From Candidatus Nomurabacteria bacterium (GTDB lineage Bacteria > Patescibacteriota > Minisyncoccia > Phycocordibacterales > UBA9973), in NCBI GenBank assembly GCA_023267435.1, contig JAHFNH010000001.1, positions 16,253-80,252 of the forward strand: DNA of 64,000 nt, read 5' to 3'. Below, one piece after another: positions 19,301-63,487 of this stretch (position 1 is the first letter of the stretch; each line of letters opens with the position of its first letter). The translations under genes were made by a program, and so were the position numbers. Under the pieces are notes generated by a model. That model had not been told where the DNA came from. It worked only from the letters and a program-made list of their open reading frames with translations, and did no database searches.

Positions 19301-19914
19301 TCTTTTATATCTTTATAACCTTGCGCCAATTCATGCGAAGAAAGAGCTGTTCCGCAACGAGGACACCAAGGCAAAACTTTGTAATCCTTGTATAAAAGTT
19401 TTTTATCATCGACTGTTTTAACAACATTCCAAACTGACTCCATAAAATGTTTATCATAAGTAACATATGGATTCTCTTTATCGATCCAGTATCCTGTACG
19501 GTCAGTAAATTGTTCCCACACATCTATGTGCTTCCAAACACTTTCTTTACACTTCTTATTAAATGCTTCTATGCCGTAAACTTCAATTTCTTTTTTAGAT
19601 TTTAAGCCAAGTTCCTTTTCAACTTTTAACTCAACAGGCAAACCGTGAGTGTCCCATCCTCCTTTGCGTCGCACATGATAACCACGCATTGTTTTATATC
19701 GAGGCAAAGCATCTTTAAAACACCTTGGTTCAAGATGGTGAATACCGGGCATACCGTTCGCAGTTGGCGGGCCATCATAAAAAACGAACTCACCGCTCGG
19801 TGCTGGTTTTTTTAAAGATTTATTAAAAATATCTTTTTCTTTCCAAAATTCTAAAACTCGCTCTTCACGGAGCGCAGACTCACTTTTATTACTTATTTCT
19901 TTGTTTTCAGCCAT
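16384..19914 (-). CDS. ileS: isoleucyl-tRNA synthetase (type 2, Thermus/eukaryote-like) carrying an inserted histidine-phosphatase (PGAM-like) domain
   Basis: PPTANGMPGIHH (HIGH region, noncanonical), CP1 editing region, WAISRERYWGTPLPIW, KMSKSIGN. Between the two Cys pairs of the zinc knuckle (VCDLCTDRH ... ELDLHRPFIDDVKLVCTHAKAGQVCGG) lies an insertion of about 200 aa with RHGQSESN, SPFMRTRETIE and LILSHG motifs. Confidence 0.85.
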   Translation of the reverse strand: MAENKEISNKSESALREERVLEFWKEKDIFNKSLKKPAPSGEFVFYDGPPTANGMPGIHHLEPRCFKDALPRYKTMRGYHVRRKGGWDTHGLPVELKVEKELGLKSKKEIEVYGIEAFNKKCKESVWKHIDVWEQFTDRTGYWIDKENPYVTYDKHFMESVWNVVKTVDDKKLLYKDYKVLPWCPRCGTALSSHELAQGYKDIKELSVFVKFKIIGEENTFVLAWTTTPWTLPGNVGLAVGEDINYVKVKQGEEFLILAEARLDVLVGEYEIVSKMKGKDLLGLEYEPLYPFLKDNISGAEKEKLGNAFKIYPADFVTTVDGTGVVHTAVMYGADDFELGTKIGLPKFHLVGEDGNFLKFAGFLAGKFVKDEETAVEIIKDLAHRGLLLKKEKYEHNYPHCWRCQTPLIYFARDSWYINMSSLREDLMKENEKINWEPAYIREGRFGEWLREVKDWAISRERYWGTPLPIWVCDLCTDRHIVGSIDDLKQKVIKSGNKYFVMRHGQSESNVKDNLHGVVCSRVEDIDHLTEQGKAQALQAVESLKDEKIDLVFVSPFMRTRETIEILKDKLGYKDEQIIFDKRLSEIDAGDFEGKNWNEYKNIFKDANERFFSAKHKGESLLDVKNRMMSFVYELEEKYKNKNILILSHGSPLWMLFAGACGYSGDESISMTGGSFRHSEEIEKGVFGSFKHFTNAEVRELSFVPLPHNENYELDLHRPFIDDVKLVCTHAKAGQVCGGEMKRVKEVMDVWFDSGAMPFAQDHYPFENKEWVEGAGYPADFISEAIDQTRGWFYTLLAVGVLMGRGTPYKNVICLGHILDKEGKKMSKSIGNVVDPWTAMDKYGVDTLRLWMYSVNQPGESKNFDERTVNETHRQVFGLLYNVLAFYELYRDTYLEQDVKDLKSGNILDQWILARLDELTTLVTEKMDNYKLLESVRAIKDFIDDLSTWYVRRSRDRIKEGDADAKQTLYFVLKNIAKLMAPFAPFSADDIWLKLKNEHDEESVHLSHWPVANEINFDVIANMAEIRKVVSLGLEARQKAGMKVRQPLAKIEVKEYKLGAPYSEVIKDELNVKEIVENSGLETEVSLDINITPELKEEGDYREFVRGVQDMRKKSGLTPSDVISLSIETSEEGKKLIEKFEVDLKKTVLASKIEFVTNEGEEIKVDVLAFKIKIQK

Positions 19915-33387: not shown

Positions 33388-33474
33388 ATAATTTTGTTTA
33401 TTACTAATTAAGACTTAACATACGAGAACCAGTTGCTAAGGCCTAACTACTAAATTAAATTAAACTAATAATTC

Positions 33475-33505
33475 AGCCTCTATGGCTGATTCGCCGATGA
33501 GGCGA
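33475..33505. repeat. GC-rich double-hairpin REP-like element, copy 1 (AGCC-TCTAT-GGCT + TCGCC-GATGA-GGCGA)
   Basis: Same two-hairpin architecture and loop sequences (TCTAC/TCTAT and GATGA) as the copies at 38179, 62274 and 63456. Confidence 0.55.
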
Positions 33506-33661
33506 AAATTAAATTGTTTATATCACAATCAGCAATATAAAAACTGCCAAAAGTGCAGTTACGTCTCATACTATCAAATTCAAAAATAAAGTCAAATCTG
33601 GAAAATATACAATAAAAAATCCCCAATCGTTATGATACGATTAGGGACATTTTAATAATAC

Positions 33662-34645
33662 TTAGTAAAAGAAACCTGAATTCCTTTTGGATTTGCTTAT
33701 CAAAGTACCGGGCAAATCTGGCTTCCAGAAATTTTTCACGCGAAGCGGTATCTCTTTATCTTTCAACTCTTTGAGAGTTTTCGGATGAACAAGACCATAA
33801 GCAGTACCATTCGGCTCAATCATTTCCTGAAAATGATCATAAGAAAGAGTTTTGAAAAACTTTGCATCCTTTCCAGCTTTTTTAGGATTTTCAAGTCCCA
33901 CACCCGGAACGTCTTTCCATAAAACAACTTCTGTGACTTCTTCTGCTTTTAATATTCCTGAATCAACAAGCAAAGAAGCGATGAGAGCTGCACTGTAATC
34001 ACTTCCCTCACGGCCAAGAGTCGTATAACCTTCAAAATAAAATTCTGGTTTTCTGTCTAAGCGAGCACCTGCAATAAATCCTTGAGTTATAACTGGTATT
34101 TCTTTTCTTAAACAATAAATCAAACCGCAATCAAAGAGAGTTTTCATAGATTCTTCCTTAGAGACAATGGCGTTACCAAAATCTAAATTGGTCCTGATAA
34201 AATTTTTAGCCGGTATGAGTTTGTTTGAATAATCATTATCAGCCAGAAAAGCGCTAACTATCCGAGATGAAATGATTTCACCTTGAGCCATAAGCTGATC
34301 ACGAACCATTTCAAAAGAATTACATTTATTGATTCCCACAAATGATTCAGTCAGATATTTCATAATCTCCTCAAATTTAAATGGAACATCTGGTCTTTTT
34401 TTGAAAAGTTCCTTAATTATTGGTTCATTATATTTTCTAACCAATTCAAGAGACTGCTCAAAAAGATCTGTGCGATTTTCAATAATACCGCGTGCAACAT
34501 TTTCAAGTGCATTTGTTGTTTTACCTATTGCTGAAACGACAACAATATTTGGTTTTTCTTTTTTTACAATTTTTCCGCATTGCCGAAGAGAAGGAACATC
34601 TTTCAAGGAAGCTCCTCCAAATTTATGAATTTTTATTTCTAACAT
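33662..34645 (-). CDS. aspartate kinase-like amino-acid-kinase catalytic domain, lacking ACT regulatory domains
   Basis: IHKFGGASL, IVVVSAIGKTTN, TTLGREGSDYSAALIASLL...LVHPKTL...GTLI align to the aspartokinase catalytic core; the protein ends about 15 aa after GTLI. Confidence 0.6.
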   Translation of the reverse strand: MLEIKIHKFGGASLKDVPSLRQCGKIVKKEKPNIVVVSAIGKTTNALENVARGIIENRTDLFEQSLELVRKYNEPIIKELFKKRPDVPFKFEEIMKYLTESFVGINKCNSFEMVRDQLMAQGEIISSRIVSAFLADNDYSNKLIPAKNFIRTNLDFGNAIVSKEESMKTLFDCGLIYCLRKEIPVITQGFIAGARLDRKPEFYFEGYTTLGREGSDYSAALIASLLVDSGILKAEEVTEVVLWKDVPGVGLENPKKAGKDAKFFKTLSYDHFQEMIEPNGTAYGLVHPKTLKELKDKEIPLRVKNFWKPDLPGTLISKSKRNSGFFY

Positions 34646-34818
34646 AGCTTGTTGTTTAAAGGGTTAGTATTCTGTTTTCTTAGATCTATTTTTTCTTAAC
34701 CTTACTTAAAATTTACAAACTTGTCAAACAATAACTTGCTTTTAAGGCACCTGAATAGTAAGGTAAAGAAAGAAAACAACTAGAAATCCGGTGTGTTCCG
34801 GTAAAAATAAATAGCACT

Positions 34819-35931
34819 TTGAAAATGAAACAACAATTAGCAGAATTCAAGGACATTGTGCCTATGATTCATCTCTTTTCAGGAATACTGAAAGGAACCA
34901 ATATTCTCTTTGATTTTGGTAATTCGCTCAAACTTTTGAAATATGAGGGAAATTCTCTCGAGGTGATGGAACCGAATACTTTCTCATACAGCAGACATGT
35001 TACCTTAATGACTTTTCCAAAAAGTTTTTTTGATAACAAAAAAACAAATGAGGAAAAATCTTTGCCAGCCAAACAAGAAAAAAACTTATTAAAGAAACTT
35101 CAAGCGAATATTTTAGGAACTCATATGCTTGATTTTAATTTGGATGAAGAATTTGGCATCTGGCTTCCTTCGTCATATGGCAAGGATCTATTTTTGACTA
35201 TTGCAGGAAAATATAAAGACGGCGTAGAAAAAATGGATAACCTTCCCATAATCACAATAGATCCAAGCCTTGTCGAAAAAAGATTGAAAGAAGTGACTCG
35301 TCCGGATTATTATGAAAATGTCATAGTTCCCTTTTTGGAAAATAAAAGTACAAAATTTAAAATACCTAAAGAGGAACAACCTTGGCATAATAAATTTTTT
35401 CAGACAAAGAAAGATTATGTCAGGCGAAGAATAACTGAATTGCCGAATGAATTAAAACATGGAGATTTTTTGTATGTCGGGTGTAAAGAAGAAGTATTTC
35501 TTCAGGGCTTTGTGGAAATGAACAATGAATATACGAATCGAAAAGATAACTGGTATTGCGGTGTAAGCACAAAACCAATTCTTTATTTTTCTAATAATTA
35601 TTTAGAGTTTATTTCTAAACATGATGCCGAAATGCCAAAGCATGAAGGTGAAGGTTCTGTAAATGTCGCGAATTATCGCACCTATGACATACCAGAGATG
35701 GGAGGTAAACGTTTTATCTTCCCACAAATAGGCAGAAACACTGATTGCAAAAATGGATTGTTTACAGGATATCCTGAATTAATTACAGGAAATCTGGACG
35801 AAGCCTTGAAACATTTTGCCAAAACGGATTTTGCTGAATTTTCTGATGTGGTAGAAAGGTATGCGAAAAATATGTCGTTCATACATCCATCATTGGAATA
35901 TGTAAAAAATGGAAGCAGGTATTTTTGCTAA
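34819..35931 (+). CDS. hypothetical protein (only sizeable plus-strand gene inside the str cluster)
   Basis: 370-aa ORF followed by a strong terminator. Confidence 0.5.
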   Translation: MKMKQQLAEFKDIVPMIHLFSGILKGTNILFDFGNSLKLLKYEGNSLEVMEPNTFSYSRHVTLMTFPKSFFDNKKTNEEKSLPAKQEKNLLKKLQANILGTHMLDFNLDEEFGIWLPSSYGKDLFLTIAGKYKDGVEKMDNLPIITIDPSLVEKRLKEVTRPDYYENVIVPFLENKSTKFKIPKEEQPWHNKFFQTKKDYVRRRITELPNELKHGDFLYVGCKEEVFLQGFVEMNNEYTNRKDNWYCGVSTKPILYFSNNYLEFISKHDAEMPKHEGEGSVNVANYRTYDIPEMGGKRFIFPQIGRNTDCKNGLFTGYPELITGNLDEALKHFAKTDFAEFSDVVERYAKNMSFIHPSLEYVKNGSRYFC

Positions 35932-35945
35932 ACACAAAAAAGCAA

Positions 35946-35973
35946 ATCGCCCTCGAGTAAACTCGAGGGCGAT
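35946..35973. terminator. bidirectional terminator (convergent with the fusA end)
   Basis: Perfect 12-bp stem ATCGCCCTCGAG-TAAA-CTCGAGGGCGAT with T-run. Confidence 0.75.
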
Positions 35974-35998
35974 TTTTTATTTTTAATAAATTTTTATT

Positions 35999-38146
35999 TT
36001 ATTTTCTTGCTGCGATGATTGTGTCTGCTACGTTTTGAGGCACAATATCGTATCTCAAGAATTCCATTGTGAATGACGCACGTCCTTCTGTCATAGATCT
36101 CAAGCCGGTCATGTAACCGAACATTTCAGAAAGAGGAACGACAGCTTTGATGACTTTACTCATACCACGCTCTTCCATACCTTCGATAAGTCCGCGCTTG
36201 GATGAAAGGTTTCCTGTGACGTCTCCCATGAATTTATCTGGAGTCACAACTTCAACTTTCATCATCGGCTCAAGGATAACTGGGTTAGCTCTTCGGCAAG
36301 CATCTTGCACAGCCATCGAAGCGGCGATTTTGAAAGCCATTTCGTTGGAGTCCACTTCGTGGTAAGAACCGTCCCAAAGTTCGACGGAAACATTTACCAT
36401 TTTAAATCCTGCCAAGATACCGCGATCCAAACCTTCTTTAAATCCTTTTTCACAGGCAGGAATATATTCTTGTGGAATAACTCCTCCTTTGATTGTGTTG
36501 ATGAATTCGAAACCAGGCGCTCTCTTTGTGTTCTTTGGTAGATCTTCCACTTCTTCTTTGGTCATAGCAACCATAGGCTTTACTTTGATCTTTACGTGAC
36601 CGTAGTTTCCACGTCCTCCGGATTGCTTGATGTATTTACCTTCAGCGTCAGCATTACCATTGATTGTCTCACGGTAGGCTACTTGAGGCTTACCAACATT
36701 GGCTTCCACCGTAAACTCTCTTTTCATACGATCAACAATAATTTCCAAGTGCAATTCTCCCATTCCAGCAATAATAGTCTCTCCTGTTTCTTGGTCGGTG
36801 GTCACACGGAAAGTAGGATCTTCTTGAGCCAAACGATTCAAAGCCATACCCATTTTTTCTTGGTCCGCTTTTGTCTTTGGTTCAATTCTTAGAGAGATAA
36901 CTGGTTCTGGGAAAACGATACGGTTCAACTCGATTGGATTTGCTTCATCACAAAGAGTATCAGAAGTGATAGTGTCTTTCAATCCGACAGCCGCTGCGAT
37001 TTCTCCAGCATAAACTTTCTTTACTTCTTCACGATCATTCGCATGCATACGCAAGATACGTCCGATTCTTTCTTTATTTCTGGTACGAGGATTATAAACA
37101 TAACTTCCGGCTTCAAGAGAACCTGAGTAAACACGGAAGAAAATAATTTGTCCGACGAATGGATCTGTCGCAACTTTGAAAGCCAAAGCTGAGAAAGGTT
37201 CTGTATCAGAAGCGTGACGAACTGCGGGTTCATCATTGTCTGGATTGATACCAGGGATAGGAGGAATATCTGTCGGAGCTGGAAGATAATCAACCACAGC
37301 ATCGAGCACAAGCTGAACACCTTTGTTTTTTAACGCAGAACCTGCGAAGACTGGGAAAACATTGTTGGCAATAACTGCCTTGCGAAGTGTCTTCTTAAGG
37401 ACATCCATACTAGGCTTCATTCCTTCAAGATATTCAGACATAAGGACATCGTCTTGTTCAACAATCTTCTCAACTAATTCTGCGTGATATTTTTCTGCAT
37501 CCGCTTTGTATTCTTCAGGAATGTCCTTTTCGATAACTTTGTTTCCCATGTCACCTTCGAAGTAATAAGCCTTCATACGTAGAAGATCCACGACACCTTC
37601 ATGCTTTTCTTCTAGTCCAATAGGAATCTGCATACGAACAGCTTTCTTTGTAAGTCTGTCTAAAATAGTTGCATAGGAGTGTTCAAAAGATGCACCAGTT
37701 CTGTCTAATTTGTTAATGAAACAAATACGAGGAACATTGGCTTCATCGGCATAGCGCCAGTTTGTTTCGGACTGAGGTTCTACTCCGGCCACGCCGTCGA
37801 AGACCACAACTGCACCGTCGAGCACGCGGAGAGAACGCTTCACTTCCACAGTGAAGTCGATGTGCCCAGGAGTATCAATAATATTGAAACGATGTTTCTT
37901 TGTTTTATCTGTCAGAGCGTAAGTAGGTGTCCAAAAACAAGTAACAGCGGCAGAAGTAATAGTGATACCTCTCTCTCTTTCTTGTTCCATCCAGTCTGTG
38001 GTGGTTTCCCCTTCGTGCACTTCACCTATTTTGTGTGATACGCCTGTATAAAAAAGCACGCGTTCAGTGGTGGTAGTCTTACCAGCATCGATGTGTGCAA
38101 TAATTCCAAAATTTCTTACTTTTTCTAACGGATAATCTCTTTCCAT
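35999..38146 (-). CDS. fusA: elongation factor G
   Basis: [13 protein letters not shown], 715 aa. Confidence 0.95.
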
Positions 38147-38178
38147 ATATATTGATTGTTAATAAATGATTGATAATA

Positions 38179-38210
38179 TCGCCTCATCGGCGATCCGCCG
38201 TAGAGGCGGA
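38179..38210. repeat. GC-rich double-hairpin REP-like element, copy 2 (TCGCC-TCATC-GGCGA + TCCGCC-GTAGA-GGCGGA)
   Basis: Reverse orientation of the consensus, upstream of fusA. Confidence 0.6.
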
Positions 38211-38336
38211 AAAATAAAAAAGGCATAGGCCTTCGTTACGAACAATATACGACATTTGCCCCAAATTTGCAAACCTCGTCGTAAACTTACGACAGGGTAA
38301 ATAAAAAAACCTCAACATATGTAAATGCAAAGGTTT

Positions 38337-38567
38337 TTAATAATACGATTCATTTCTTGAGTCCTTAAATAATTTAACAAAATAATCCTTGTTATCAGTA
38401 AAAGTATTATCTTCGTAACCCATTCCCGTTTCTACAAAAAAAGATTCTAAAATAACAAAATAATCTTCTGCCATAGAACCACCGAAGTTTTCAATATAAT
38501 ACTTACAATATCTCAAGAAAATACCTTCTACGTGATTATCACCTGGAATCAATCTAAATTTTTCCAT
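38337..38567 (-). CDS. hypothetical small protein (island gene 6)
   Basis: 76-aa ORF preceded by a cassette-type intergenic module. Confidence 0.4.
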   Translation of the reverse strand: MEKFRLIPGDNHVEGIFLRYCKYYIENFGGSMAEDYFVILESFFVETGMGYEDNTFTDNKDYFVKLFKDSRNESYY

Positions 38568-38624
38568 GTCCTTAAATTTAAGTTTATAAATATCTATTTA
38601 ATCTTAAATTACCATTTAAGGATA

Positions 38625-38695
38625 ATTAGTCAATGCTAAACAAAAAAGCGCCCTTACGATAATCTGTAAGGACACTTCGCTTTAAAACCATGGCG
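38625..38695 (-). repeat. cassette boundary module copy E (TTGACTAAT box + CCTTAC/GTAAGG terminator hairpin + CTTCGCTTAAAACCATGG box)
   Basis: Near-identical to 40214..40284. Confidence 0.6.
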
Positions 38696-38714
38696 TAGGT
38701 TTATCAGCATAAAT

Positions 38715-38927
38715 TTAATACTCGTATTCATAAAAAGAAAGGAAAATGAAAATTAACATAAATACTCCAATTAAACTTAAACCTGAAAGGATACTATTTT
38801 TAAAACAAAGAAAAATTCCTGCAATAAGTACAGAATACATAAATATCGCAATAATCTTTACCTTTGTTTGTCTTTCCAAATTCTTAATTTTTAAGAAAGG
38901 AAAAAGTAATATTTTAGATATTTTCAT
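38715..38927 (-). CDS. hypothetical small membrane protein, 2 TM (island gene 5)
   Basis: Two hydrophobic helices. Confidence 0.4.
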   Translation of the reverse strand: MKISKILLFPFLKIKNLERQTKVKIIAIFMYSVLIAGIFLCFKNSILSGLSLIGVFMLIFIFLSFYEYEY

Positions 38928-38931
38928 TGTC

Positions 38932-39618
38932 TTAAGTTTTTAGTAATGTAAATTGTGATCTGTATGATTCAAAAACTTCATAGGATTTCAAATAATCCAA
39001 GAAATAATTTATCATTTTAATTCTGTGATTTAATCTTTTGTAAGCTTTCAATTTTAGCGCGGAACGACAGTATGAAAGTTCTTGCTGAAGATAATTTTCA
39101 AATTTCTCAATTAAATCTTTACGCTTTTTAATTTCGGGACGTATTCCATTATAAAACAAAAAAGAATGCGCTAAATCAAATTTTATTTTTGAAATTCTTA
39201 ATTCCATCTCACAAGAAAAGTAAGCGACTTTTAGTTGAAAATTGGTACTACTTCTTGCAGAATATTCATCAATACCAAATGGGTCGAAATGAAAACCTGT
39301 TTTTGATTTGGTTTCATTCACAATACATTCCGTTTGTCTGTTTATTTTTTGTTTTCGTGTTTTTTTAAGATCTTCAATACACTGTTTTACATCTTTAATT
39401 GTATTCTCTATTTCTTCCATTTTTGCAATTGTTTCCGGCAAATAAAATTCATTCTTATTGATTTCAATAAAATCGATTAATTTACCTTTTTCTATTTCTG
39501 CAAGAATAAGTAAATCGATAAGCTTTTTAGATCTAAAAAAATACTCTAGTAAAAAGAGTAAGATATAAACGAACACTATAAATGCAGTAATTTTTATAAC
39601 TAAATAAAATATTTCCAT
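38932..39618 (-). CDS. hypothetical membrane-anchored coiled-coil protein (island gene 4)
   Basis: N-terminal TM (ITAFIVFVYILLFLL), K/E-rich helical remainder. Confidence 0.45.
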   Translation of the reverse strand: MEIFYLVIKITAFIVFVYILLFLLEYFFRSKKLIDLLILAEIEKGKLIDFIEINKNEFYLPETIAKMEEIENTIKDVKQCIEDLKKTRKQKINRQTECIVNETKSKTGFHFDPFGIDEYSARSSTNFQLKVAYFSCEMELRISKIKFDLAHSFLFYNGIRPEIKKRKDLIEKFENYLQQELSYCRSALKLKAYKRLNHRIKMINYFLDYLKSYEVFESYRSQFTLLKT

Positions 39619-39700
39619 TTTTCTTTGATTTTCAAGGAACGACTGGTTTGACTCCGTTCAAAATCACATTACCATTTTTAGACTTTTAGTCAAATAAAAA

Positions 39701-39723
39701 AGAGCTGAATATTTATCAGCTCT
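39701..39723 (-). terminator. terminator of island gene 3
   Basis: AGAGCTGA-ATATTTA-TCAGCTCT, 8-bp stem with T-run. Confidence 0.6.
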
Positions 39724-39730
39724 TTTACTC

Positions 39731-40150
39731 TTAGTGTACATCAAAAAATGATTCCTTTATTTTAGTAACAACACATTTACTTTTTCCTTCACCACAATCT
39801 TGTCCTGAATATGTACCGAACCAAATACCACCTTCTTTTTTATCAAAAACATACTCAATCACAGGACGACCAGTATAAGGCATTCCTTTAATTAAGTATT
39901 GTTTAGTAAAACTTAATTCGCTATCACTTAATCTAAAGTTAGTAATTTTTGATTCACCCCATTTATCGTTCATACTGCCACAAAAACCTTTTTCATTATC
40001 TTTTGATGAACCAACGATTCCATGAAACATTGCAAATATCATTGCATCTTTAATCGTTGCAACGATTCCGATACTTTGGTCATATGCTGTACCAAAAATT
40101 TTACCTTGCTGAAAAATAATTCCTTGCAAGGCATAGAGATTTCTTTCCAT
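39731..40150 (-). CDS. hypothetical protein (island gene 3)
   Basis: 139-aa ORF with conserved upstream module copy C. Confidence 0.5.
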   Translation of the reverse strand: MERNLYALQGIIFQQGKIFGTAYDQSIGIVATIKDAMIFAMFHGIVGSSKDNEKGFCGSMNDKWGESKITNFRLSDSELSFTKQYLIKGMPYTGRPVIEYVFDKKEGGIWFGTYSGQDCGEGKSKCVVTKIKESFFDVH

Positions 40151-40157
40151 ATTGTTT

Positions 40158-40284
40158 TTTGTTTTAAAAGAAGTTAATACTATATATTTACCCTCACACT
40201 ACCACTTTATGAAATTTAATCAATGCTAAATAAAAAAACGCCCTTACGATAACCTGTAAGGACGCTTCGCTTAAAACCATGGAC
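40158..40284 (-). repeat. cassette boundary module copy C (conserved leader + TTGATTAAAT box + terminator hairpin + CTTCGCTTAAAACCATGG)
   Basis: GTTTTAAAAGAAGTT...CCCTCACACTACCACTTT then ATTTAATCAATGCTAAATAAAAAAAC then GCCCTTACGATAACCTGTAAGGAC. Confidence 0.6.
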
Positions 40285-40313
40285 TGATTTTATAGCATAA
40301 AAATTTATTATTA

Positions 40314-41300
40314 CTACAACAAAGCTCCAAGTAATTCAACTTTTTTCTTTGGATTTAATCTTCCAACCGATTGACTGCCTTTTTGTATTTTTTCAAATAC
40401 AGATTCGTTTGATTTCTTGTCACTAAAAATCTTCCATTCTTCCGGCAAATAAAGACTTTTTATTGAAAAATTATTTTTATGAAGTTGAACAATTCGTTCC
40501 TTGCCTATTTTAGGAATTAGAATTTCTTGAGTCTTACCGTTAAACAGCCTAAGGAAACTAATCAGGTGCTCATCCTTTAGGATGCCTATATGTTCTGCAA
40601 TACAATTAAATACATCTTCATTAAAAGTATAATCCTTACAATACTCATCCTGAAAAATATTTTCTAATCCGTCACCTTCAAAAAGAGACTTCTGATACAA
40701 CCAAAGTATTTTCTTTAAATACTCATTCGAGACTAAATTAAGTGCCGGAAAAAATACTCTTGGATGAACTGAAGAAAATAGATGCATGGCCTCAAAAGGA
40801 AATTCCTTTTCTTTTTTGTATAAAAAAATATCCTTTTCTCTTGCCGAAGCCGGAGCTTTGACATTTAAACAGCTACCAAATAAAAAGTTGATAATTTCTA
40901 ATACCCGTTTCGGGGAAGCTACAGAAAAGTAACGCGATAAGTTATAACCATGACCATAATGATTTTGATCATTTTTCCATCTACCCCAAGCACCACCTAT
41001 ATCAACAGAATTTTTTGCAGCGATTCTGATTAAAAGATGCGGTGGTAAAATATCAAGTAATTCTTTTTTGATTCCTTCTCCAAGATCGAAATTAATACTC
41101 CATATACTAGAAAAATCGACAGTATCAGCATCGTATTTTACAAATTCCAGAAATTTTTCCGGTGTAAGCTTATTTAACACTTTAAGATAACGCTCACTAT
41201 CAAGATCCATAAGCTCTTGATGTAATGTTTTAATTGGGAGCTTTAACACAGAACCAATGAGTTCATTGATTACCTGTTCTTTCTTTGTTTGTTTTTTCAT
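40314..41300 (-). CDS. hypothetical protein (island gene 2)
   Basis: 328-aa ORF with conserved upstream module copy B. Confidence 0.5.
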   Translation of the reverse strand: MKKQTKKEQVINELIGSVLKLPIKTLHQELMDLDSERYLKVLNKLTPEKFLEFVKYDADTVDFSSIWSINFDLGEGIKKELLDILPPHLLIRIAAKNSVDIGGAWGRWKNDQNHYGHGYNLSRYFSVASPKRVLEIINFLFGSCLNVKAPASAREKDIFLYKKEKEFPFEAMHLFSSVHPRVFFPALNLVSNEYLKKILWLYQKSLFEGDGLENIFQDEYCKDYTFNEDVFNCIAEHIGILKDEHLISFLRLFNGKTQEILIPKIGKERIVQLHKNNFSIKSLYLPEEWKIFSDKKSNESVFEKIQKGSQSVGRLNPKKKVELLGALL

Positions 41301-41309
41301 ATCTATATT

Positions 41310-41420
41310 TAGTTTTAAAAGAAGTTTATATTTCGTTTATTTACCTTCACACTACCATTTTAAAATACTTTGTCAAAGTTACTTCAAACAAATAAAAAAG
41401 CCCTCACAATTTGTGAGGAC
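41310..41420 (-). repeat. cassette boundary module copy B
   Basis: TAGTTTTAAAAGAAGTTTATATTTCGTTTATTTACCTTCACACTACCATTTT, then TTTGTCAAAG box, A-run and hairpin CCTCACA-ATTT-GTGAGG. Confidence 0.6.
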
Positions 41421-41440
41421 TTAAAACAACTTTTGCTTTT

Positions 41441-42367
41441 TTATTTTAATGTATCATTTAATGTTTGAGAAAAATTAAATGAAACAACCATCTTCCCATC
41501 TTCAACCTCCACCTCCGAAAATACACTGGAAGAAAAATCAACCTTAAATTTTCCTTTGACTTCTTCCCAATTATCAGTGTTTAATATCTTCCAATAAGCA
41601 TCTTCACTTGAGTTGTGTTTAACCGAACAAGCAAGATATTTATCTGTACATTTTACACTCATAATAATTTCACCTTTTTCAGACAAAGAAAGGTATGATT
41701 TCGTTTCAAGATTATAGACGAAAAAATGACGATTAAAATCCGATCCGTATCTAAGTACTACATACTTTGGAGCGACAAAAAAGAAAACATTGGTTTCTTT
41801 TGCGGATCCTTCTTTTTGGAGTTTCACAGGAAGTGGAATAGTTAAAAAAGAATTTTCTGCAATAAAGTAAACCATCTTGTCAGGAGCACGGTATCCATGA
41901 TCAGGAGAAAGGAAAAGTACTTTTTCCCCGTTAAATATTTCTGTCTTTTCACATTTTTTAAAGAACCCTACACCATTCGCCTCTAGGATATGGTTTGGCA
42001 CAAAACGATCCTCGTTAAATAAGTAGGTTGCATAATGGTCATGTGAGCTTCCTTCTACTGAAAGCTGAATAAAATCTTCAGTAAGTGAAAAAATCTTTCC
42101 TTCATAAAAATCAAAGGAATTTTTACACTTTAACCATTTACCTTCTCCGCGAAGATAAACACAGAAAATATCCTTAACGGTAGTGCATTGCACAATTTTT
42201 TCAAAAACTTTTATTTCTTTAAATCCCTGAGGACTGCCATAAGGACCTTCAATAATAGGTTTTGATTCTTCAATCGAAAAATAAAGCAATTCATTAGAAT
42301 CTTTAAATAAAAGAATTCCTTGTTCCTCTTTTGAGAAAGCCAAGGTTAATACAGTTGTTGTTTCCAT
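41441..42367 (-). CDS. hypothetical beta-rich protein (island gene 1)
   Basis: 308-aa ORF with conserved upstream module copy A. Confidence 0.5.
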   Translation of the reverse strand: METTTVLTLAFSKEEQGILLFKDSNELLYFSIEESKPIIEGPYGSPQGFKEIKVFEKIVQCTTVKDIFCVYLRGEGKWLKCKNSFDFYEGKIFSLTEDFIQLSVEGSSHDHYATYLFNEDRFVPNHILEANGVGFFKKCEKTEIFNGEKVLFLSPDHGYRAPDKMVYFIAENSFLTIPLPVKLQKEGSAKETNVFFFVAPKYVVLRYGSDFNRHFFVYNLETKSYLSLSEKGEIIMSVKCTDKYLACSVKHNSSEDAYWKILNTDNWEEVKGKFKVDFSSSVFSEVEVEDGKMVVSFNFSQTLNDTLK

Positions 42368-42374
42368 TTTTATT

Positions 42375-42469
42375 TAGTTTTAAAAGAAGTTTATATTCCG
42401 TTTATTTATCTTCACACTACCACTTTCAGATATTTAGTCAACAAAAACAAAATCCACCGATGAGGCGGA
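42375..42469 (-). repeat. cassette boundary module copy A (conserved leader + TTTAGTCAA box + half-REP hairpin TCCACC-GATGA-GGCGGA)
   Basis: TAGTTTTAAAAGAAGTTTATATTCCGTTTATTTATCTTCACACTACCACTTT is about 90% identical to copy B. Confidence 0.6.
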
Positions 42470-42490
42470 TTAGAGTTTGTATTTTTAGTA

Positions 42491-42961
42491 TTACCAAGCG
42501 AAGTGAGCGAAGGCTTTGTTGGCTTCTGCCATTTTGTGTGTGTCTTCTCTCTTCTTGATGGCAGCACCTTCGTTCTTTGAAGCTGCGATTAATTCATCAG
42601 CAAGTTTCAAATGCATTGGCTGGCCTTTTTTGGAACGAGCAGCGTCACGAATCCATCTCATAGCTAATGCAAGACGACGTTCAGGGCGAACTTCACGAGG
42701 AACCTGATAGTTTGCGCCTCCGATTCTCTTTGAACGAACTTCAGTCAATGGACCAGCGTTCTTCATTGCAAGATCGAAAATTTCCAAAGGATTAGGATTG
42801 CCTGTCTTTTCTTTTATAACATCAAAAGCTTTGTACATAACTTTTCTAGCAGTCTCTTTCTTTCCAGACCACATGGTGTAGTTAATAAACTTCTCAAGCT
42901 TTTGAGAGTTATAAACGAAATCAGGTCCTACGATATTTCTATTTTTTACTTTTCTTCGCAT
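42491..42961 (-). CDS. rpsG: 30S ribosomal protein S7
   Basis: S7 family pattern; follows rpsL. Confidence 0.9.
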   Translation of the reverse strand: MRRKVKNRNIVGPDFVYNSQKLEKFINYTMWSGKKETARKVMYKAFDVIKEKTGNPNPLEIFDLAMKNAGPLTEVRSKRIGGANYQVPREVRPERRLALAMRWIRDAARSKKGQPMHLKLADELIAASKNEGAAIKKREDTHKMAEANKAFAHFAW

Positions 42962-43421: not shown

Positions 43422-43511
43422 ATTGTTGATTTTAAAAGAATAAAGTGAACATAGTCGCTCCATTCCTTAGTTTTCTAAATCTACTACAAGCTTTGAAAAA
43501 TTGCAAATTTC

Positions 43512-45980
43512 TTATATGTTAAATACTCTGTTTAATACTCCATGAATGATTTTGAAGTAATTTGATGTGTAAACGACGGAGTATGACGCATCATCATTTT
43601 TCTTCTCAATTTTCACATAATATGTGCCGTTTGGAACAAGCATGTAATATCTTCCCATTTCATCGGTCACCTTGTGTGCGATTTCCACATTGGTATCGAC
43701 AGAAAATACGCGAATGAAGGCAAATGACAACGGGGATCCATCTTTATCAAAGAGGCGTCCTTTGGCTTTCAATTTGAAGCTTGTTCTGCGCAAGATAAAC
43801 ATAGCGACATACAAGCCGAGCACAACCATATTGTATTTTTCAGGAGAAATGATGAACGCACCGATAGCCACAGTAAATCCGAAACCGAAGAAGAAGTTCG
43901 AAACACGAGCGATCATCAATTCTTTCTTGGAATAGAACTGGAAGAGTTTCTTTTTATTCTTAGCAAATTCATTCCAATCAAAACCGATAGGATCCAACGG
44001 AATATTTTTCACAATCACTTCCCCTTCAGTGATGTTCATATAATCTCCGAAATAAAGATCCTGATAAAATTCATCACGGAAATGTTTTGAAAGAACATCG
44101 GATGGGAAAAGATAGTTTGTCTTTCTTGGCACGACTTTATAAACTCCCGGCTTGACCAAGAATCCATATCGTCCATCGATATCAGTAATAGAAGAATCAA
44201 CTTCCACGCCTTCAAGGTTGCGCAGAGAAACATAAACCGGATCGAGTGGCTGCTTGGTAATGCTGTCGTAGACAGTTCCCCATTTGTTTACTCTCTTTCT
44301 CAATCCAAAAGCCGTCAAGAACAGAGACCAGAGACGGAAAGGAATAAGTATTAATTCTGGGAAAGCTAATGGGTTCAAGAAGAGCGCTGTCGCCAAGGAA
44401 AGTATCGAACCGACGATCACCGAGATAGTAGCTGCGATCTTAAGTCCGAGATTTAAATTTTGCACAAGTGCTGGCGGGAAGAAATTAAGAACTGGAGGTG
44501 GCAATAAACTCTGATTACATCCGGGTGCATTTGGATTTGTAGCACAATCAATCTGAGTGCTTAAAACTTGTATACAGCCTGGAAGGTTTGGGTTGGTCGT
44601 ACAGTTTACAGTGATACAACTCGGATCAGTTGGATTAGTCTCACAAAAAGGTTTCATGACACAAAGCGGGTCATTTATAGAATAGTGTATATCAAAAGGA
44701 CAAAGAGCTATAGGATTACAGATAGGATTATTTGAATTGTATGTTGGCAATCCTTGAGTACACTGACAAACAGCTGTGGTTGGATCAGTCGTACAAGAAT
44801 CATTACTCTCATCGTTTAATGATTGATCGTACACTCCGTTCGTCCAACAGCCCGGATCGTTTCGATCAACCAAGCCGTCACCGTTATTTCCATTTGAACC
44901 GTTGTCTGCTCCACCTGGAGGTGGTGGAGGAATATCTACTCCGTTGGAACCGTTGTCTATGCCGTCATTACATTGAGTCGCTGTAGCTGCACAAGGTAAG
45001 TTGCCGACATTCACAGTAATATCTTTTTCATTAGTTACAAGTCCGATTGAACCAGTAGCTTTAGCTTTAATAGAAATGGTTTGGTCTGCACTACAAGATA
45101 CTGTCTGGTACCAGGGTATTTCATAATTTCCAGTCGTTGCGTTATAAGTTCCTGAAACCCAAGCTCCATTATCAACTGAAAATTCCACAGTATCGGCTGT
45201 GCCTGATGTTACTTTGGCTTGTATTGTTAAATTAGCTAATGGCACAGGTGGAACATCGGGAGGAGTGTAGATAGCATCAGCTGATACGAAACTGTCACTA
45301 TCATGTAGATTAACAAAATCAACAACCAAGTTATTGGTTACTGGAATACACTCACTAGGATTTAAAGGATTCACCATATAACCCACAGGTGGTGCATTTG
45401 TAAATGGACTGCCTTGCATACCCTGGGCTGTTAAATTAGGACATAGATCAACTGGAGTAGGAGAAAGAACGGGACCACCACCACTAACAACAGTAGGACG
45501 CCAGCTAGTTTTAACACACTGTCCGGCTACTTTTCCAGGAGCAGAACAATCAAATTTTATCCAACCGTCATTTTGACTCCAAACATTACCATTGAATTCG
45601 CCTGTAGTCGTATCGATCGAAACACCGCCATTCGTCGGAGCAAAATTTATCCAACCAGCATTTTGACTCCAAGCATAGCCAGACAAAATTCCGTTTATAG
45701 TGTTAGACACACCGCCATTAGTTGGATTTAAATTTATCCAACCGACAACATCTCCCCAAGCATATCCGGTAATACTAGAATCTGTTATTTGAACATTACA
45801 ATTGGTACAGTTAAAATTTATTGTTCCGTTATTGGTATCTATAAATTTTGCAGTGTTATAAGTGGCATCAATGCTGCCATTATTAGCCTGCACATGAAAA
45901 GCGAAAAGAGTAAAAACCAAAATTGGTATTAAAAAATATGTTTTTCGCAAAAATTTATTCATAGTTTTAATTGATATCAT
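43512..45980 (-). CDS. large surface protein: signal peptide, GYAW(G/S)xxxGWI(N/K)F repeats, Cys-rich Pro/Asn module, several TM helices interspersed with carboxypeptidase-regulatory-like beta domains
   Basis: Signal peptide LIPILVFTLFAFHVQA. Three tandem repeats (GYAWGDVVGWINLNPTNGGVS / GYAWSQNAGWINFAPTNGGVS / GNVWSQNDGWIKFDC). Cys-rich CQCTQGLPTYNSNNPICNPIALCPFD...; TM segments near residues 500-560 and 690-730; GRYGFLVKPGVYKVV and GRYYMLVPNGTYYVKI motifs. Confidence 0.6.
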   Translation of the reverse strand: MISIKTMNKFLRKTYFLIPILVFTLFAFHVQANNGSIDATYNTAKFIDTNNGTINFNCTNCNVQITDSSITGYAWGDVVGWINLNPTNGGVSNTINGILSGYAWSQNAGWINFAPTNGGVSIDTTTGEFNGNVWSQNDGWIKFDCSAPGKVAGQCVKTSWRPTVVSGGGPVLSPTPVDLCPNLTAQGMQGSPFTNAPPVGYMVNPLNPSECIPVTNNLVVDFVNLHDSDSFVSADAIYTPPDVPPVPLANLTIQAKVTSGTADTVEFSVDNGAWVSGTYNATTGNYEIPWYQTVSCSADQTISIKAKATGSIGLVTNEKDITVNVGNLPCAATATQCNDGIDNGSNGVDIPPPPPGGADNGSNGNNGDGLVDRNDPGCWTNGVYDQSLNDESNDSCTTDPTTAVCQCTQGLPTYNSNNPICNPIALCPFDIHYSINDPLCVMKPFCETNPTDPSCITVNCTTNPNLPGCIQVLSTQIDCATNPNAPGCNQSLLPPPVLNFFPPALVQNLNLGLKIAATISVIVGSILSLATALFLNPLAFPELILIPFRLWSLFLTAFGLRKRVNKWGTVYDSITKQPLDPVYVSLRNLEGVEVDSSITDIDGRYGFLVKPGVYKVVPRKTNYLFPSDVLSKHFRDEFYQDLYFGDYMNITEGEVIVKNIPLDPIGFDWNEFAKNKKKLFQFYSKKELMIARVSNFFFGFGFTVAIGAFIISPEKYNMVVLGLYVAMFILRRTSFKLKAKGRLFDKDGSPLSFAFIRVFSVDTNVEIAHKVTDEMGRYYMLVPNGTYYVKIEKKNDDASYSVVYTSNYFKIIHGVLNRVFNI

Positions 45981-46025
45981 TTTTATTTAAAAGTTTATCG
46001 TTCGCTCATTATATCACAAATAATA

Positions 46026-62273: not shown

Positions 62274-62305
62274 CCGCCTCATCAGCGGATGCGCCGTAGA
62301 GGCGC
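62274..62305. repeat. GC-rich double-hairpin REP-like element, copy 4 (CCGCCTCATCAGCGG + ATGCGCCGTAGAGGCGC)
   Basis: 32-nt near-perfect inverted copy of the element at 63456..63487. Confidence 0.65.
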
Positions 62306-63455: not shown

Positions 63456-63487
63456 GCGCCTCTACGGCGCATCCGCCGATGAGGCGG
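63456..63487. repeat. GC-rich double-hairpin REP-like element, copy 5 (consensus orientation GCGCC-TCTAC-GGCGC + CCGCC-GATGA-GGCGG)
   Basis: Both stems perfect; the cleanest copy in the window. Confidence 0.65.

What the first reader, a model, noticed from the sequence alone, without database searches (positions are those of the whole stretch)
40158..42469. Each island gene is bracketed by copies of the same promoter-like leader and terminator module (cassette-like architecture)
The spacers upstream of genes 41441..42367, 40314..41300 and 39731..40150 each contain a conserved leader (coding-strand sense AAAGTGGTAGTGTGAAG(A/G)TAAATAAACG(G/A)AATATAAACTTCTTTTAAAACTA, ending 5-10 nt before the ATG; coordinates 42375..42426, 41310..41362, 40158..40208). 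A diverged copy precedes gene 38337..38567 (38575..38622). Every gene is followed by A-run + hairpin + box TTGACTAA(A/T)T (coding-strand sense ...hairpin-CTTTTTTGTTTAGCATTGACTAAAT). The hairpins differ (CCTTAC/GTAAGG twice, CCTCACA/TGTGAGG, AGAGCTGA/TCAGCTCT, half-REP CCGCC-GATGA-GGCGG). Two copies (38675..38695 and 40264..40284) additionally share CTTCGCTTAAAACCATGG. Unrelated coding sequences embedded in a repeated regulatory frame is what arises when cassettes are serially captured or duplicated and then diverge. The conserved 45-50-nt leader directly abutting three different start codons is also a candidate cis-regulatory RNA or protein-binding site.
Basis: seen in the sequence. Interest (0 to 1): 0.7.

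Follow-up and report, generated by a model that had tools for sequence, protein, structure and literature searches.

The report
Repeated promoter-terminator cassettes in bacterial hotspot
Between two core translation genes (rpsG and fusA) of an uncultured ultra-small bacterium (Paceibacterota) lies a fast-changing slot of unrelated orphan genes, each with its own copy of the same terminator, promoter and leader module; this layout was previously described only in T4-type phages, where it drives gene shuffling.

Summary
Three intergenic modules (upstream of genes A, B and C) are 78-88% identical over about 77 nt. That exceeds all 435 background pairs of upstream regions in the window. Two more (upstream of D and F) share only the promoter core. 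The 5' half of its "leader" is an extended -10 (TGG-TAGTGT). The rest is a roughly 40-nt unstructured, AU-rich leader with no Shine-Dalgarno motif. An intrinsic terminator precedes each module. The coding sequences are unrelated. In close relatives (S7 at least 92% identical) the rpsG-fusA interval holds 0 to 6 genes of differing content. In several of these relatives the inserted genes carry their own copies of the module. Module subtypes are paired with unrelated ORFs in different genomes, and one window module is a chimera of two others. The best reading is a chromosomal hotspot of autonomous expression cassettes whose repeated regulatory module also serves as recombination homology, like the PeSL elements of T4-type phages. 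A structured cis-regulatory RNA, an integron and a prophage are not supported. Promoter activity and the recombination mechanism are inferred, not shown.

The parts
42491..42961 (-). rpsG (ribosomal protein S7), left core flank of the slot
   Evidence: Pfam Ribosomal_S7 in the contig's gene table. There are 7604 homologs at E<=1e-40, many 91-97% identical.
42451..42471 (-). Intrinsic terminator after rpsG; its hairpin is a copy of a REP-like palindrome
   Evidence: Terminator scan. The REP-like motif CGCCTCATCGGTG lies at 42455-42467.
42368..42441 (-). Module 1: -35 TTGACT (42436-42441), 16-nt spacer, TG (42421-42422), -10 TAGTGT (42414-42419), then a leader of about 40 nt reaching the ATG of gene A
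   Evidence: 43.6 bits; family D4, 88% to module 2; E=2.5e-18.
41441..42367 (-). Gene A, 308 aa, orphan
   Evidence: No Pfam, PHROG or PADLOC hit. One homolog cluster, 60% identical, in the same slot of another Paceibacterota.
41398..41422 (-). Intrinsic terminator after A
41301..41376 (-). Module 2: promoter (-10 at 41349-41354) plus leader of gene B
   Evidence: 42.1 bits; E=1.2e-16.
40314..41300 (-). Gene B, 328 aa, small lineage-restricted family
   Evidence: 12 cluster representatives among 1.84 billion proteins. 63% identical to the first cassette gene of L055.
40235..40268 (-). Intrinsic terminator after B; related to the terminator after E
   Evidence: The 5' part of this spacer (stop codon to -35) is 87% identical to the E-F spacer.
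40151..40223 (-). Module 3 (variant -35 TTGATT, -10 at 40196-40201) plus leader of gene C. The B-C spacer as a whole is a chimera: its terminator and -35 half resemble the E-F spacer, its -10 and leader half resemble modules 1 and 2.
   Evidence: 40.0 bits; E=1.8e-15. 87% identical to the module of an unrelated 64-aa gene in L055.
39731..40150 (-). Gene C, 139 aa, predicted 8-stranded beta-barrel
39698..39726 (-). Intrinsic terminator after C
39619..39693 (-). Module 4: same promoter core (-10 TAATGT at 39666-39671) with a different leader (GAACGG...CGTTCC)
   Evidence: 34.6 bits; E=9e-4. Leader similarity to modules 1-3 is within background. The leader resembles that of an unrelated 93-aa gene in L062.
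38715..39618 (-). Genes D (38932-39618, 228 aa, hydrophobic N-terminus suggesting a TM segment) and E (38715-38927, 70 aa, two hydrophobic stretches), one transcription unit
   Evidence: They are 4 nt apart with no module between them. No family hit passes its curated cutoff. Public gene callers annotate an antisense ORF in place of E.
38645..38678 (-). Intrinsic terminator after E
38568..38633 (-). Module 5: promoter core (-10 TAATTT at 38606-38611) with a diverged leader carrying an AAGGA just before the ATG
   Evidence: 33.2 bits; family D1; E=1.1e-3.
38337..38567 (-). Gene F, 76 aa, orphan
38147..38336 (-). Right boundary: weak hairpin after F; fusA's own promoter (TTGCAA-17-TATATT, 38244-38272); leader hairpin with T-run (38219-38234); a REP-like pair (38180-38208)
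   Evidence: The same fusA promoter and leader are present in relatives with and without inserted genes.
35999..38146 (-). fusA (EF-G), right core flank
   Evidence: 88% nt identity to L055 and L056.

Best explanation
The 4.3 kb between rpsG and fusA is a gene-turnover hotspot in a Paceibacterota (CPR) chromosome. It holds five autonomous expression cassettes. Each unit begins directly after the intrinsic terminator of the previous unit. It has a sigma-70-type promoter: -35 TTGACT, a 16-nt spacer, and an extended -10 TGG-TAGTGT. A roughly 40-nt unstructured, AU-rich leader without a Shine-Dalgarno motif then runs to the start codon of an orphan gene. The module has two roles. It insulates and expresses whatever ORF sits behind it. 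Its repeated copies also supply the short homology through which cassettes are duplicated, deleted, swapped and recombined, probably after DNA uptake and with rpsG and fusA as outer anchors. Functionally this is the arrangement described for PeSL (promoter-early stem-loop) elements in the hyperplastic regions of T4-type phages.

Shown here: the repeats and their statistics; the predicted terminators; promoter geometry identical to the window's other promoters; absence of RNA structure; variable slot content in close relatives; the same module subtype in front of unrelated ORFs; one chimeric module.

Inferred: promoter activity and transcription start; translation without a Shine-Dalgarno motif; recombination between modules as the shuffling mechanism.
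For: Repeats well above background.

Terminators after each unit.

Promoter geometry. TTGAC-N14-TGnTAnnnT is shared with the tuf, tRNA and other promoters of the window. Only 5 of 63 genes have a Shine-Dalgarno-like motif.

Leader RNA. It is unstructured: RNAalifold predicts 0 pairs and MFE z-scores run from -0.6 to +0.6.

Slot occupancy in relatives with S7 at least 92% identical: none with a 9-nt gap (L063); none with a 126-nt spacer (L071); none with a 218-nt spacer that still has the rpsG terminator and fusA promoter (L056); 1 gene (L057, L065, L069); 2 (L002, L037); 3 (L062); 4 (L055 and the ERZ1426829 contig, partly seen as L060); 6 (window).. L055 and L056 encode identical S7 and are 93-97% identical in flanking genes, yet differ by a 4-gene island.

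Cargo. Content is combinatorial. A is also found in L002, B in L055, C in L053, and the 132-aa gene in both L002 and L037. All other cargo is unrelated.

Module copies in other genomes. L055 has 4, L002 has 2 (90 nt, 91% identical), L037 has 2, L053/L040 has 2, L011 has an extra cassette, and L057, L062 and L070 have 1 each.

Reassortment. The window C module is 87% identical to the L055 64-aa gene module, with a 30-nt exact run, although the ORFs are unrelated. The spacer before window gene C is 87% identical to the E-F spacer in its 5' half, and 77-79% identical to modules 1 and 2 in its 3' half, against 54% to the E-F spacer there.

Conservation. Best module pairs between window and L055 are 83-87% identical. 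That is near core genes (fusA 88%, rpsG 90%) and above cargo B (72%) and the M50 peptidase gene (73%). Terminators are unalignable.

Substrate for recombination. Exact shared tracts of 27-51 nt exist between modules within a genome. ComEC is encoded in the window. Natural transformation with homologous recombination has been demonstrated in Patescibacteria (PMC10633639).
Against: No transcript data exist, so promoter, start site and terminators are consensus matches only. The simple promoter scan did not flag these promoters, because TAGTGT matches TATAAT at only 3 of 6 positions.

The source genome beyond the 64-kb window could not be read, so genome-wide module counts are unknown for it.

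Homology tracts of 27-51 nt at 80-90% overall identity are near the lower limit for RecA-dependent exchange. No excision products or population-level junctions were examined.

Some relatives fill the slot with genes that have unrelated upstream regions (L060, L065). The hotspot therefore exists independently of this module.

Higher conservation of the leader than of the promoter spacer could reflect a sequence-specific leader function rather than recombination.
Confidence: 0.6

Rival explanations
1. The similarity is only convergence on generic signals. Every independently transcribed gene in this compact, AT-rich genome needs a terminator, a near-consensus promoter and an AU-rich leader without a Shine-Dalgarno motif. 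On this view the modules share neither ancestry nor any role in gene turnover.
For: The promoter geometry is the same as that of the window's other promoters. Motifs such as CTTTTAAA and TAAATA before the ATG also occur at rpsL and at the 822-aa gene. The leaders of modules 4 and 5 are no more similar to modules 1-3 than background.
Against: A/B/C similarity (77-89%) exceeds all 435 background pairs, whose maximum is 74%. Functionally neutral spacer bases are shared: both L037 copies have an identical 14-nt spacer. Exact runs of 27-51 nt occur. One module is chimeric. The sequence model finds no further copies in 258 kb outside accessory-gene starts.
Confidence: 0.12
2. The conserved leader is a sequence-specific regulatory site: an operator, an RNA-binding-protein site or a small-RNA target, or a dedicated translation enhancer. 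It would place the island genes in one regulon, and its conservation would reflect that function. This can coexist with the cassette model.
For: Within-genome module pairs differ at 9 of 30 promoter-spacer positions but at only 3 of 89 positions downstream of the -10 (Fisher p=2e-4). The leader type is conserved between window and L055 at the level of core genes. The distance from -35 to ATG is nearly constant, 69-83 nt.
Against: No conserved structure, no covariation and no Rfam family. Leader sequence differs strongly between lineages (window type vs L002 type) and among cassettes of the same island (modules 4 and 5). No candidate regulator was identified.
Confidence: 0.2
3. An integron-like or other site-specific cassette system: cassettes are inserted by a recombinase acting on the hairpins.
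For: Tandem array of unrelated small ORFs, each followed by a hairpin.
Against: No integrase, transposase or recombinase family is on record for any called gene in the contig gene tables, which reach 10 kb beyond the queried genes A and rpsG. The hairpins differ in sequence and are short GC stems with T-runs. Each cassette has its own promoter, whereas integron cassettes are typically promoterless. The conserved part is the promoter and leader, not the hairpin.
Confidence: 0.03
4. A decayed prophage or phage-derived early region inserted into the str operon.
For: The architecture resembles phage early or hyperplastic regions. Cargo is orphan genes and G+C is lower (0.28-0.32 against about 0.36).
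Against: No DNA match to 50,697 phage records. No significant PHROG hit; the only match is marginal, gene A at E=0.004. No relatives of A or B in IMG/VR contigs. No integrase or structural genes. The slot is occupied at the same position, with different content, in many lineages.
Confidence: 0.04

Closest known systems
PeSL (promoter-early stem-loop) regulatory cassettes of T4-type phages (Arbiol et al. 2010, PMC2839356; Comeau et al. 2014, PMC4122927)
   Same: A composite intergenic motif running from the upstream stop codon to the downstream start codon. It has a stem-loop terminator, an AT-rich tract and a strong sigma-70-like promoter. It is repeated many times and concentrated in hyperplastic regions in front of ORFans. 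Differences between close relatives are indels and replacements bounded by the motifs. One PeSL subclass has the stem-loop upstream of the -35, as here.
   Different: Here the host is a cellular chromosome (CPR bacterium), not a phage. The slot lies inside the str ribosomal gene cluster. The conserved part extends through a roughly 40-nt leader that lacks a Shine-Dalgarno motif, whereas PeSLs end in one. The stem-loops are not conserved between copies. No minicircles or promoter activity have been demonstrated.
Chromosomal integration hotspots flanked by core genes (Oliveira et al. 2017, PMC5635113)
   Same: A single interval between two conserved core genes concentrates accessory genes with rapid turnover among close relatives. 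No dedicated mobility gene is present, which suggests homologous recombination on the flanks (for the paper; for the data).
   Different: Such hotspots are not described as arrays of monocistronic units framed by one repeated promoter and leader module. This one splits a normally co-transcribed ribosomal operon.
Integron gene-cassette arrays
   Same: A tandem array of unrelated small ORFs whose content varies between relatives.
   Different: No integrase and no attC-type conserved sites. Each cassette carries its own promoter instead of depending on a common Pc.
Conserved 5' regions of mycoplasma variable surface-protein gene families (recalled from memory; not tested)
   Same: Near-identical promoter and 5'UTR blocks in front of tandem genes in a small, AT-rich genome, used as recombination substrates.
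   Different: Those genes are paralogs that share signal peptides, and they switch by site-specific inversion or slippage. Here the ORFs are unrelated from the start codon on.

Membership tests
PeSL regulatory cassette (T4-type phages) | Composite of a sigma-70-like promoter and an adjacent stem-loop terminator filling the intergenic space | tested here: met
   A terminator hairpin with T-run lies directly upstream of -35 TTGACT and the extended -10 TGG-TAGTGT. These are consensus matches only; function was not assayed.
PeSL regulatory cassette (T4-type phages) | Many copies concentrated in variable (hyperplastic) regions, upstream of ORFans | tested here: met
   5 copies in 4.3 kb and none elsewhere in 64 kb. 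Cargo has no Pfam, PHROG or PADLOC family. The slot is variable in relatives.
PeSL regulatory cassette (T4-type phages) | Resides in a T4-type phage genome and acts as an early promoter | tested here: not met
   The context is a bacterial chromosome between rpsG and fusA. No phage similarity. It is therefore an analogue, not a member.
PeSL regulatory cassette (T4-type phages) | Recombination between copies produces indels, replacements and minicircles | tested here: inconclusive
   A chimeric module, module-ORF reassortment, and a strain variant whose homology resumes at the module start all fit. No junction reads or circles were examined.
Integron | intI integrase and attI next to the array | tested here: not met
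   No integrase or recombinase family is on record for any called gene in the contig gene tables around the island.
Integron | Conserved attC recombination site at each cassette's 3' end; promoterless cassettes | tested here: not met
   The hairpins differ and look like intrinsic terminators. Each cassette has its own promoter.
Structured cis-regulatory leader RNA (riboswitch or ribosomal-protein leader type) | Conserved secondary structure with covariation, or a match to a curated family | tested here: not met
   Rfam: no match reaches a gathering score. With the permissive threshold there are two chance-level hits, one overlapping only the terminator after A, none on a module. RNAalifold predicts 0 pairs in 16 leaders. 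MFE is -0.8 to -9 kcal/mol with non-significant z-scores.
Sigma-70-type extended -10 promoter | -35 TTGACA-like hexamer, 16-18-nt spacer, TG one base upstream of a TAnnnT -10 | tested here: met
   All five island promoters fit TTGA(C/T)-N14-TGG-TA(G/A)T(G/T)T. The same geometry is found at tuf, tRNA and other promoters of the window. Activity was not tested.
Core-gene-flanked integration hotspot | The same interval between orthologous core genes holds different accessory genes in close relatives | tested here: met
   0 to 6 genes between rpsG and fusA in more than 12 configurations, including an empty site in a genome with identical S7.

The most novel reading that the evidence does not exclude
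Paceibacterota, and perhaps CPR bacteria more widely, possess an integrase-free gene-capture platform. A portable terminator-promoter-leader cassette would equip any incoming ORF for expression. Through recombination between its copies it would also actively generate cassette gain, loss and shuffling at safe-harbour slots inside the ribosomal gene cluster. That would make it a cellular counterpart of phage PeSL elements. The leader may additionally be read by a lineage-specific trans-acting factor, since it is conserved more than the promoter spacer within genomes but replaced between lineages.
Probability: 0.3. Interest if true: 0.8.

Novelty: new variant of a known kind. Interest (0 to 1): 0.58.

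Why it matters
Gene turnover in ultra-small, streamlined CPR genomes is poorly understood. Nothing on their promoters turned up in the paper searches run here. This locus gives three things.

1. A concrete, testable promoter-leader-terminator unit. It could serve as a genetic part for Patescibacteria, which have only recently become transformable.

2. A natural neutral insertion site between rpsG and fusA.

3. Evidence that the modular-shuffling logic known from T4-type phages may also operate in a cellular chromosome without any recombinase gene.

It also shows that the classic rpsL-rpsG-fusA-tuf operon is split into separately promoted units in this lineage.

Tried and rejected
- **Structured leader RNA.** Rfam at a permissive threshold, RNAalifold on 16 leaders and single-sequence folds gave nothing.
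- **Paralogous gene family.** All-against-all BLASTP of island proteins found no similarity.
- **Phage origin.** No match in the phage collection or in IMG/VR.
- **Integron or mobile element.** No recombinase nearby and no conserved junction site.
- **Leader derived from the rpsL leader.** The shared TTCTTTTAAAA is the T-run of rpsL's own leader hairpin and is not conserved as such in relatives.
- **Genome-wide count in the source genome.** The source genome is not among the GTDB representatives. Its large contig could not be fetched.
- **Strict promoter pattern in public collections.** It returned about the chance number of hits. The true copies came from only a handful of Paceibacteria contigs.
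Full report
**Context.** The window is a Candidatus Paceibacterota (CPR/Patescibacteria) contig. The closest named relatives of its proteins are annotated as Paceibacterota or Minisyncoccia. Nearly all genes are on the minus strand. The finding lies between rpsG (42491-42961) and fusA (35999-38146). The interval holds six ORFs:
- A, 41441-42367
- B, 40314-41300
- C, 39731-40150
- D, 38932-39618
- E, 38715-38927
- F, 38337-38567

. The island has lower G+C (0.28-0.32) than its surroundings (about 0.36).

**Observation check: the repeats.**
- AACTTCTTTTAAAAC occurs exactly three times in the window, all at the reported sites.
- AARTGGTARTGTGA occurs four times exactly and once with two mismatches, all in the island.
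- The repeat finder reports 76 nt at 88% (modules before A and B), 103 nt at 81% (the B-C and E-F spacers), and a 36-nt core in four copies.
- From the -35 to the ATG, A/B are 87% identical and A/C and B/C are 78-81% identical.
- 435 pairs of upstream regions of non-island genes average 58%, with a maximum of 71-74%.
- A weight matrix of the promoter core scores 33-44 bits at five island sites. Nothing else in 64 kb reaches 14 bits.

**Observation check: terminators and corrections.** Terminator-like hairpins with T-runs follow rpsG, A, B, C and E. Several details need correcting.
- A fifth copy precedes D.
- D and E are one unit.
- The copies before D and F share only the promoter core. Their leaders are within background similarity.
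- The terminators are not one repeated element. Only those after B and E are related.

**Anatomy.** The TTGACTAA box is a -35 hexamer placed directly after the terminator T-run.
- Sixteen bases downstream lies TAGTGT (TAATGT or TAATTT in modules 4 and 5). It is preceded by TGG, which makes an extended -10.
- The tuf, tRNA and other promoters of the window share this geometry, TTGAC-N14-TGnTAnnnT.
- The simple scan missed the island promoters because TAGTGT matches TATAAT at only three positions.
- About 40 nt remain as 5'UTR if transcription starts about 7 nt after the -10. That start site is inferred.
- The UTR is AU-rich and lacks a Shine-Dalgarno motif. This is the norm here: 5 of 63 genes have such a motif.
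- It has no conserved structure. RNAalifold predicts 0 pairs in 16 leaders, and single folds are no better than shuffles.
- It has no Rfam match.

**The slot is a hotspot.** Relatives with S7 at least 92% identical show the following rpsG-fusA arrangements.

| Locus | Content of the rpsG-fusA interval |
|---|---|
| L063 | no gene, 9-nt gap |
| L071 | no gene, 126-nt spacer |
| L056 | no gene, 218-nt spacer that still has the rpsG terminator and fusA promoter |
| L057, L065, L069 | 1 gene |
| L002, L037 | 2 genes |
| L062 | 3 genes |
| L055; ERZ1426829 contig (partly L060) | 4 genes |
| window | 6 genes |

. L055 and L056 encode identical S7. They are 93-97% identical in flanking genes, yet differ by a four-gene island.

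**Cargo is combinatorial.**
- A recurs in L002 (60% aa).
- B recurs as the first cassette of L055 (63% aa).
- C recurs in L053 (54% aa).
- A 132-aa gene is shared by L002 and L037 (82% aa).
- Everything else is unrelated.
- Cargo in relatives includes a histidine phosphatase, a PaaX/Cas2-like protein, a polyprenyl synthase and membrane proteins.
- B belongs to a family with only 12 cluster representatives among 1.84 billion proteins.

**The module travels with the slot, not with the ORFs.**
- L055 has four module copies of the window type. Its -10 is TAGTTT.
- L002 has two copies, 90 nt at 91% identity. They share the promoter core with the window but have a different leader.
- L037 and L053/L040 have two copies each. 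L011, a strain variant of L002, has an extra 68-aa cassette with its own copy. Its homology to L002 resumes at the module start.
- A sequence-only model built from eight copies was searched against 258 kb of held DNA. Beyond its training set it finds only copies in front of accessory genes. It finds nothing credible elsewhere in the window.
- In the GTDB representative of the L002 lineage, the strict promoter pattern occurs only twice, both in the island.

**Evidence for reassortment.**
- The module before window gene C is 87% identical to the one before an unrelated 64-aa gene in L055. The two share a 30-nt exact run.
- The first module after rpsG is positionally conserved between window and L055, although it precedes A in one and B' in the other.
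- The spacer before C is a chimera. Its 5' half, from stop codon to -35, is 87% identical to the E-F spacer. Its 3' half is 77-79% identical to modules 1 and 2, but only 54% to the E-F spacer.
- Homology between B and B' covers promoter, leader and ORF, and collapses in the terminator.

**Constraint on the module.**
- Between window and L055, the best module pairs are 83-87% identical.
- That compares with fusA 88% and rpsG 90%. It is higher than B (72%) and the M50 peptidase gene (73%).
- Within genomes, paired modules differ at 9 of 30 spacer positions but at only 3 of 89 positions downstream of the -10 (p=2e-4).
- The transcribed leader is therefore under sequence constraint, or is homogenised, beyond what a generic AU-rich leader needs. 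I cannot separate these two possibilities.

**Mechanism.** My best reading has two parts.
- Each unit is an insulated monocistronic expression cassette.
- The repeated module doubles as recombination homology. Exact tracts of 27-51 nt occur within genomes.

The split of the str operon, with a terminator after rpsG and a separate fusA promoter, is present even at the empty L056 site. This creates a safe harbour. ComEC is encoded in the window. Natural transformation with homologous recombination has been shown in Saccharibacteria (PMC10633639). Genomic islands are reported to be common in Patescibacteria (PMC12455944). Promoter activity, the start site and module-mediated exchange remain inferences.

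**Comparison with known systems.** The closest known system is the PeSL of T4-type phages. PeSLs are repeated composite terminator-promoter motifs that span stop codon to start codon. They are concentrated before ORFans in hyperplastic regions and mediate modular shuffling (PMC2839356 and PMC4122927). This case works like a PeSL array but is not a member, for four reasons.
- It sits in a bacterial chromosome.
- The conserved part includes a leader without a Shine-Dalgarno motif.
- The stem-loops are not conserved.
- There is no phage similarity.

It also fits the definition of a core-gene-flanked integration hotspot (PMC5635113). Integron membership fails: there is no integrase, no attC-like site, and each cassette has its own promoter. 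My paper searches found no description of such modules in Patescibacteria. The library is incomplete.

**Limits.**
- There are no expression data.
- The rest of the source genome could not be read.
- The functions of A-F are unknown. The model of C is a generic beta-barrel and the model of A is unusable.
- The recombination model rests on comparative patterns from a modest number of contigs.

Noticed in passing
window 33492-33504, 38180-38208, 42455-42467, 62275-62304, 63457-63486: A REP-like palindrome, CGCCTC(AT/TA)CGGCG, occurs 8 times against 0.03 expected. Copies often form inverted pairs 16 nt apart. One copy forms the rpsG terminator.
   Followed up: partly
window 38219-38272 (fusA) and about 43430-43500 (rpsL); L055, L056, L057, L002, L063, L065, L069-L071: rpsL and fusA share a distinct promoter, TTTGCAA-N17-TAnnnT. 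In fusA, and in the rpsL leaders of most relatives, it is followed by a short GC hairpin and T-run; the window's own rpsL hairpin looks degenerate. The element is conserved across relatives and looks like an attenuator for translation genes.
   Followed up: partly
window about 33390-33600 (upstream of tuf); L055 14124-14351; L056 10838-11060; L057 13831-14066: tuf has a long conserved leader of about 200 nt. It contains a hairpin, AACTGCACTTTTGGCAGTTTTT, and a strongly conserved block...GCCTTAGCAACTGGTTCTCGTATGTTAAGT.... There is no Rfam match.
   Followed up: no
window 33388-35998 and 43464-46025; the same intervals in L002, L055-L057, L062, L069, L071: The fusA-tuf and M50 peptidase-rpsL intervals also vary between close relatives. 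Examples are a 368-aa ORF plus an amino-acid kinase here, 692+86 aa in L057, and large surface-type proteins of 822-1718 aa before rpsL. None of these carries the island module.
   Followed up: partly
window 16384-19914 (-): The 1176-aa class I tRNA synthetase (isoleucyl type) carries an inserted histidine-phosphatase (His_Phos_1) domain at residues 500-666.
   Followed up: no
L069 7679-7951; L070 7555-7809: Small GIY-YIG genes (84-90 aa) occupy the rpsG-fusA interval in two relatives that encode identical S7. In L069 the gene sits inside the fusA leader, downstream of the fusA promoter. This resembles a free-standing homing endonuclease, which could stimulate recombination at this slot.
   Followed up: no
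L016 200-1760 (-): A more distant Paceibacteria genome has three consecutive genes: an XRE-type HTH, an inositol-monophosphatase-like gene, and one more. Each is preceded by a terminator and a lineage-specific repeated module. That module has the same promoter core plus an extra conserved box, CCCTTTATAGTGAGTTTTGGA, upstream of the -35.
   Followed up: partly
window 38715-38943: Public gene calls annotate a 65-aa ORF on the plus strand (38746-38943). The promoter and terminator layout and the hydrophobic profile favour the 70-aa minus-strand gene E (38715-38927), which starts 4 nt after D.
   Followed up: partly
whole window: Only 5 of 63 genes have a Shine-Dalgarno-like motif. Start codons are preceded by A/T-rich tracts, often TAAATA-like.
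   Followed up: partly
L001 (= window 38185-42590); L007, L009-L011, L022: Several independent metagenome assemblies break within a few hundred bases of the island borders. This is consistent with strain heterogeneity at this slot.
   Followed up: no
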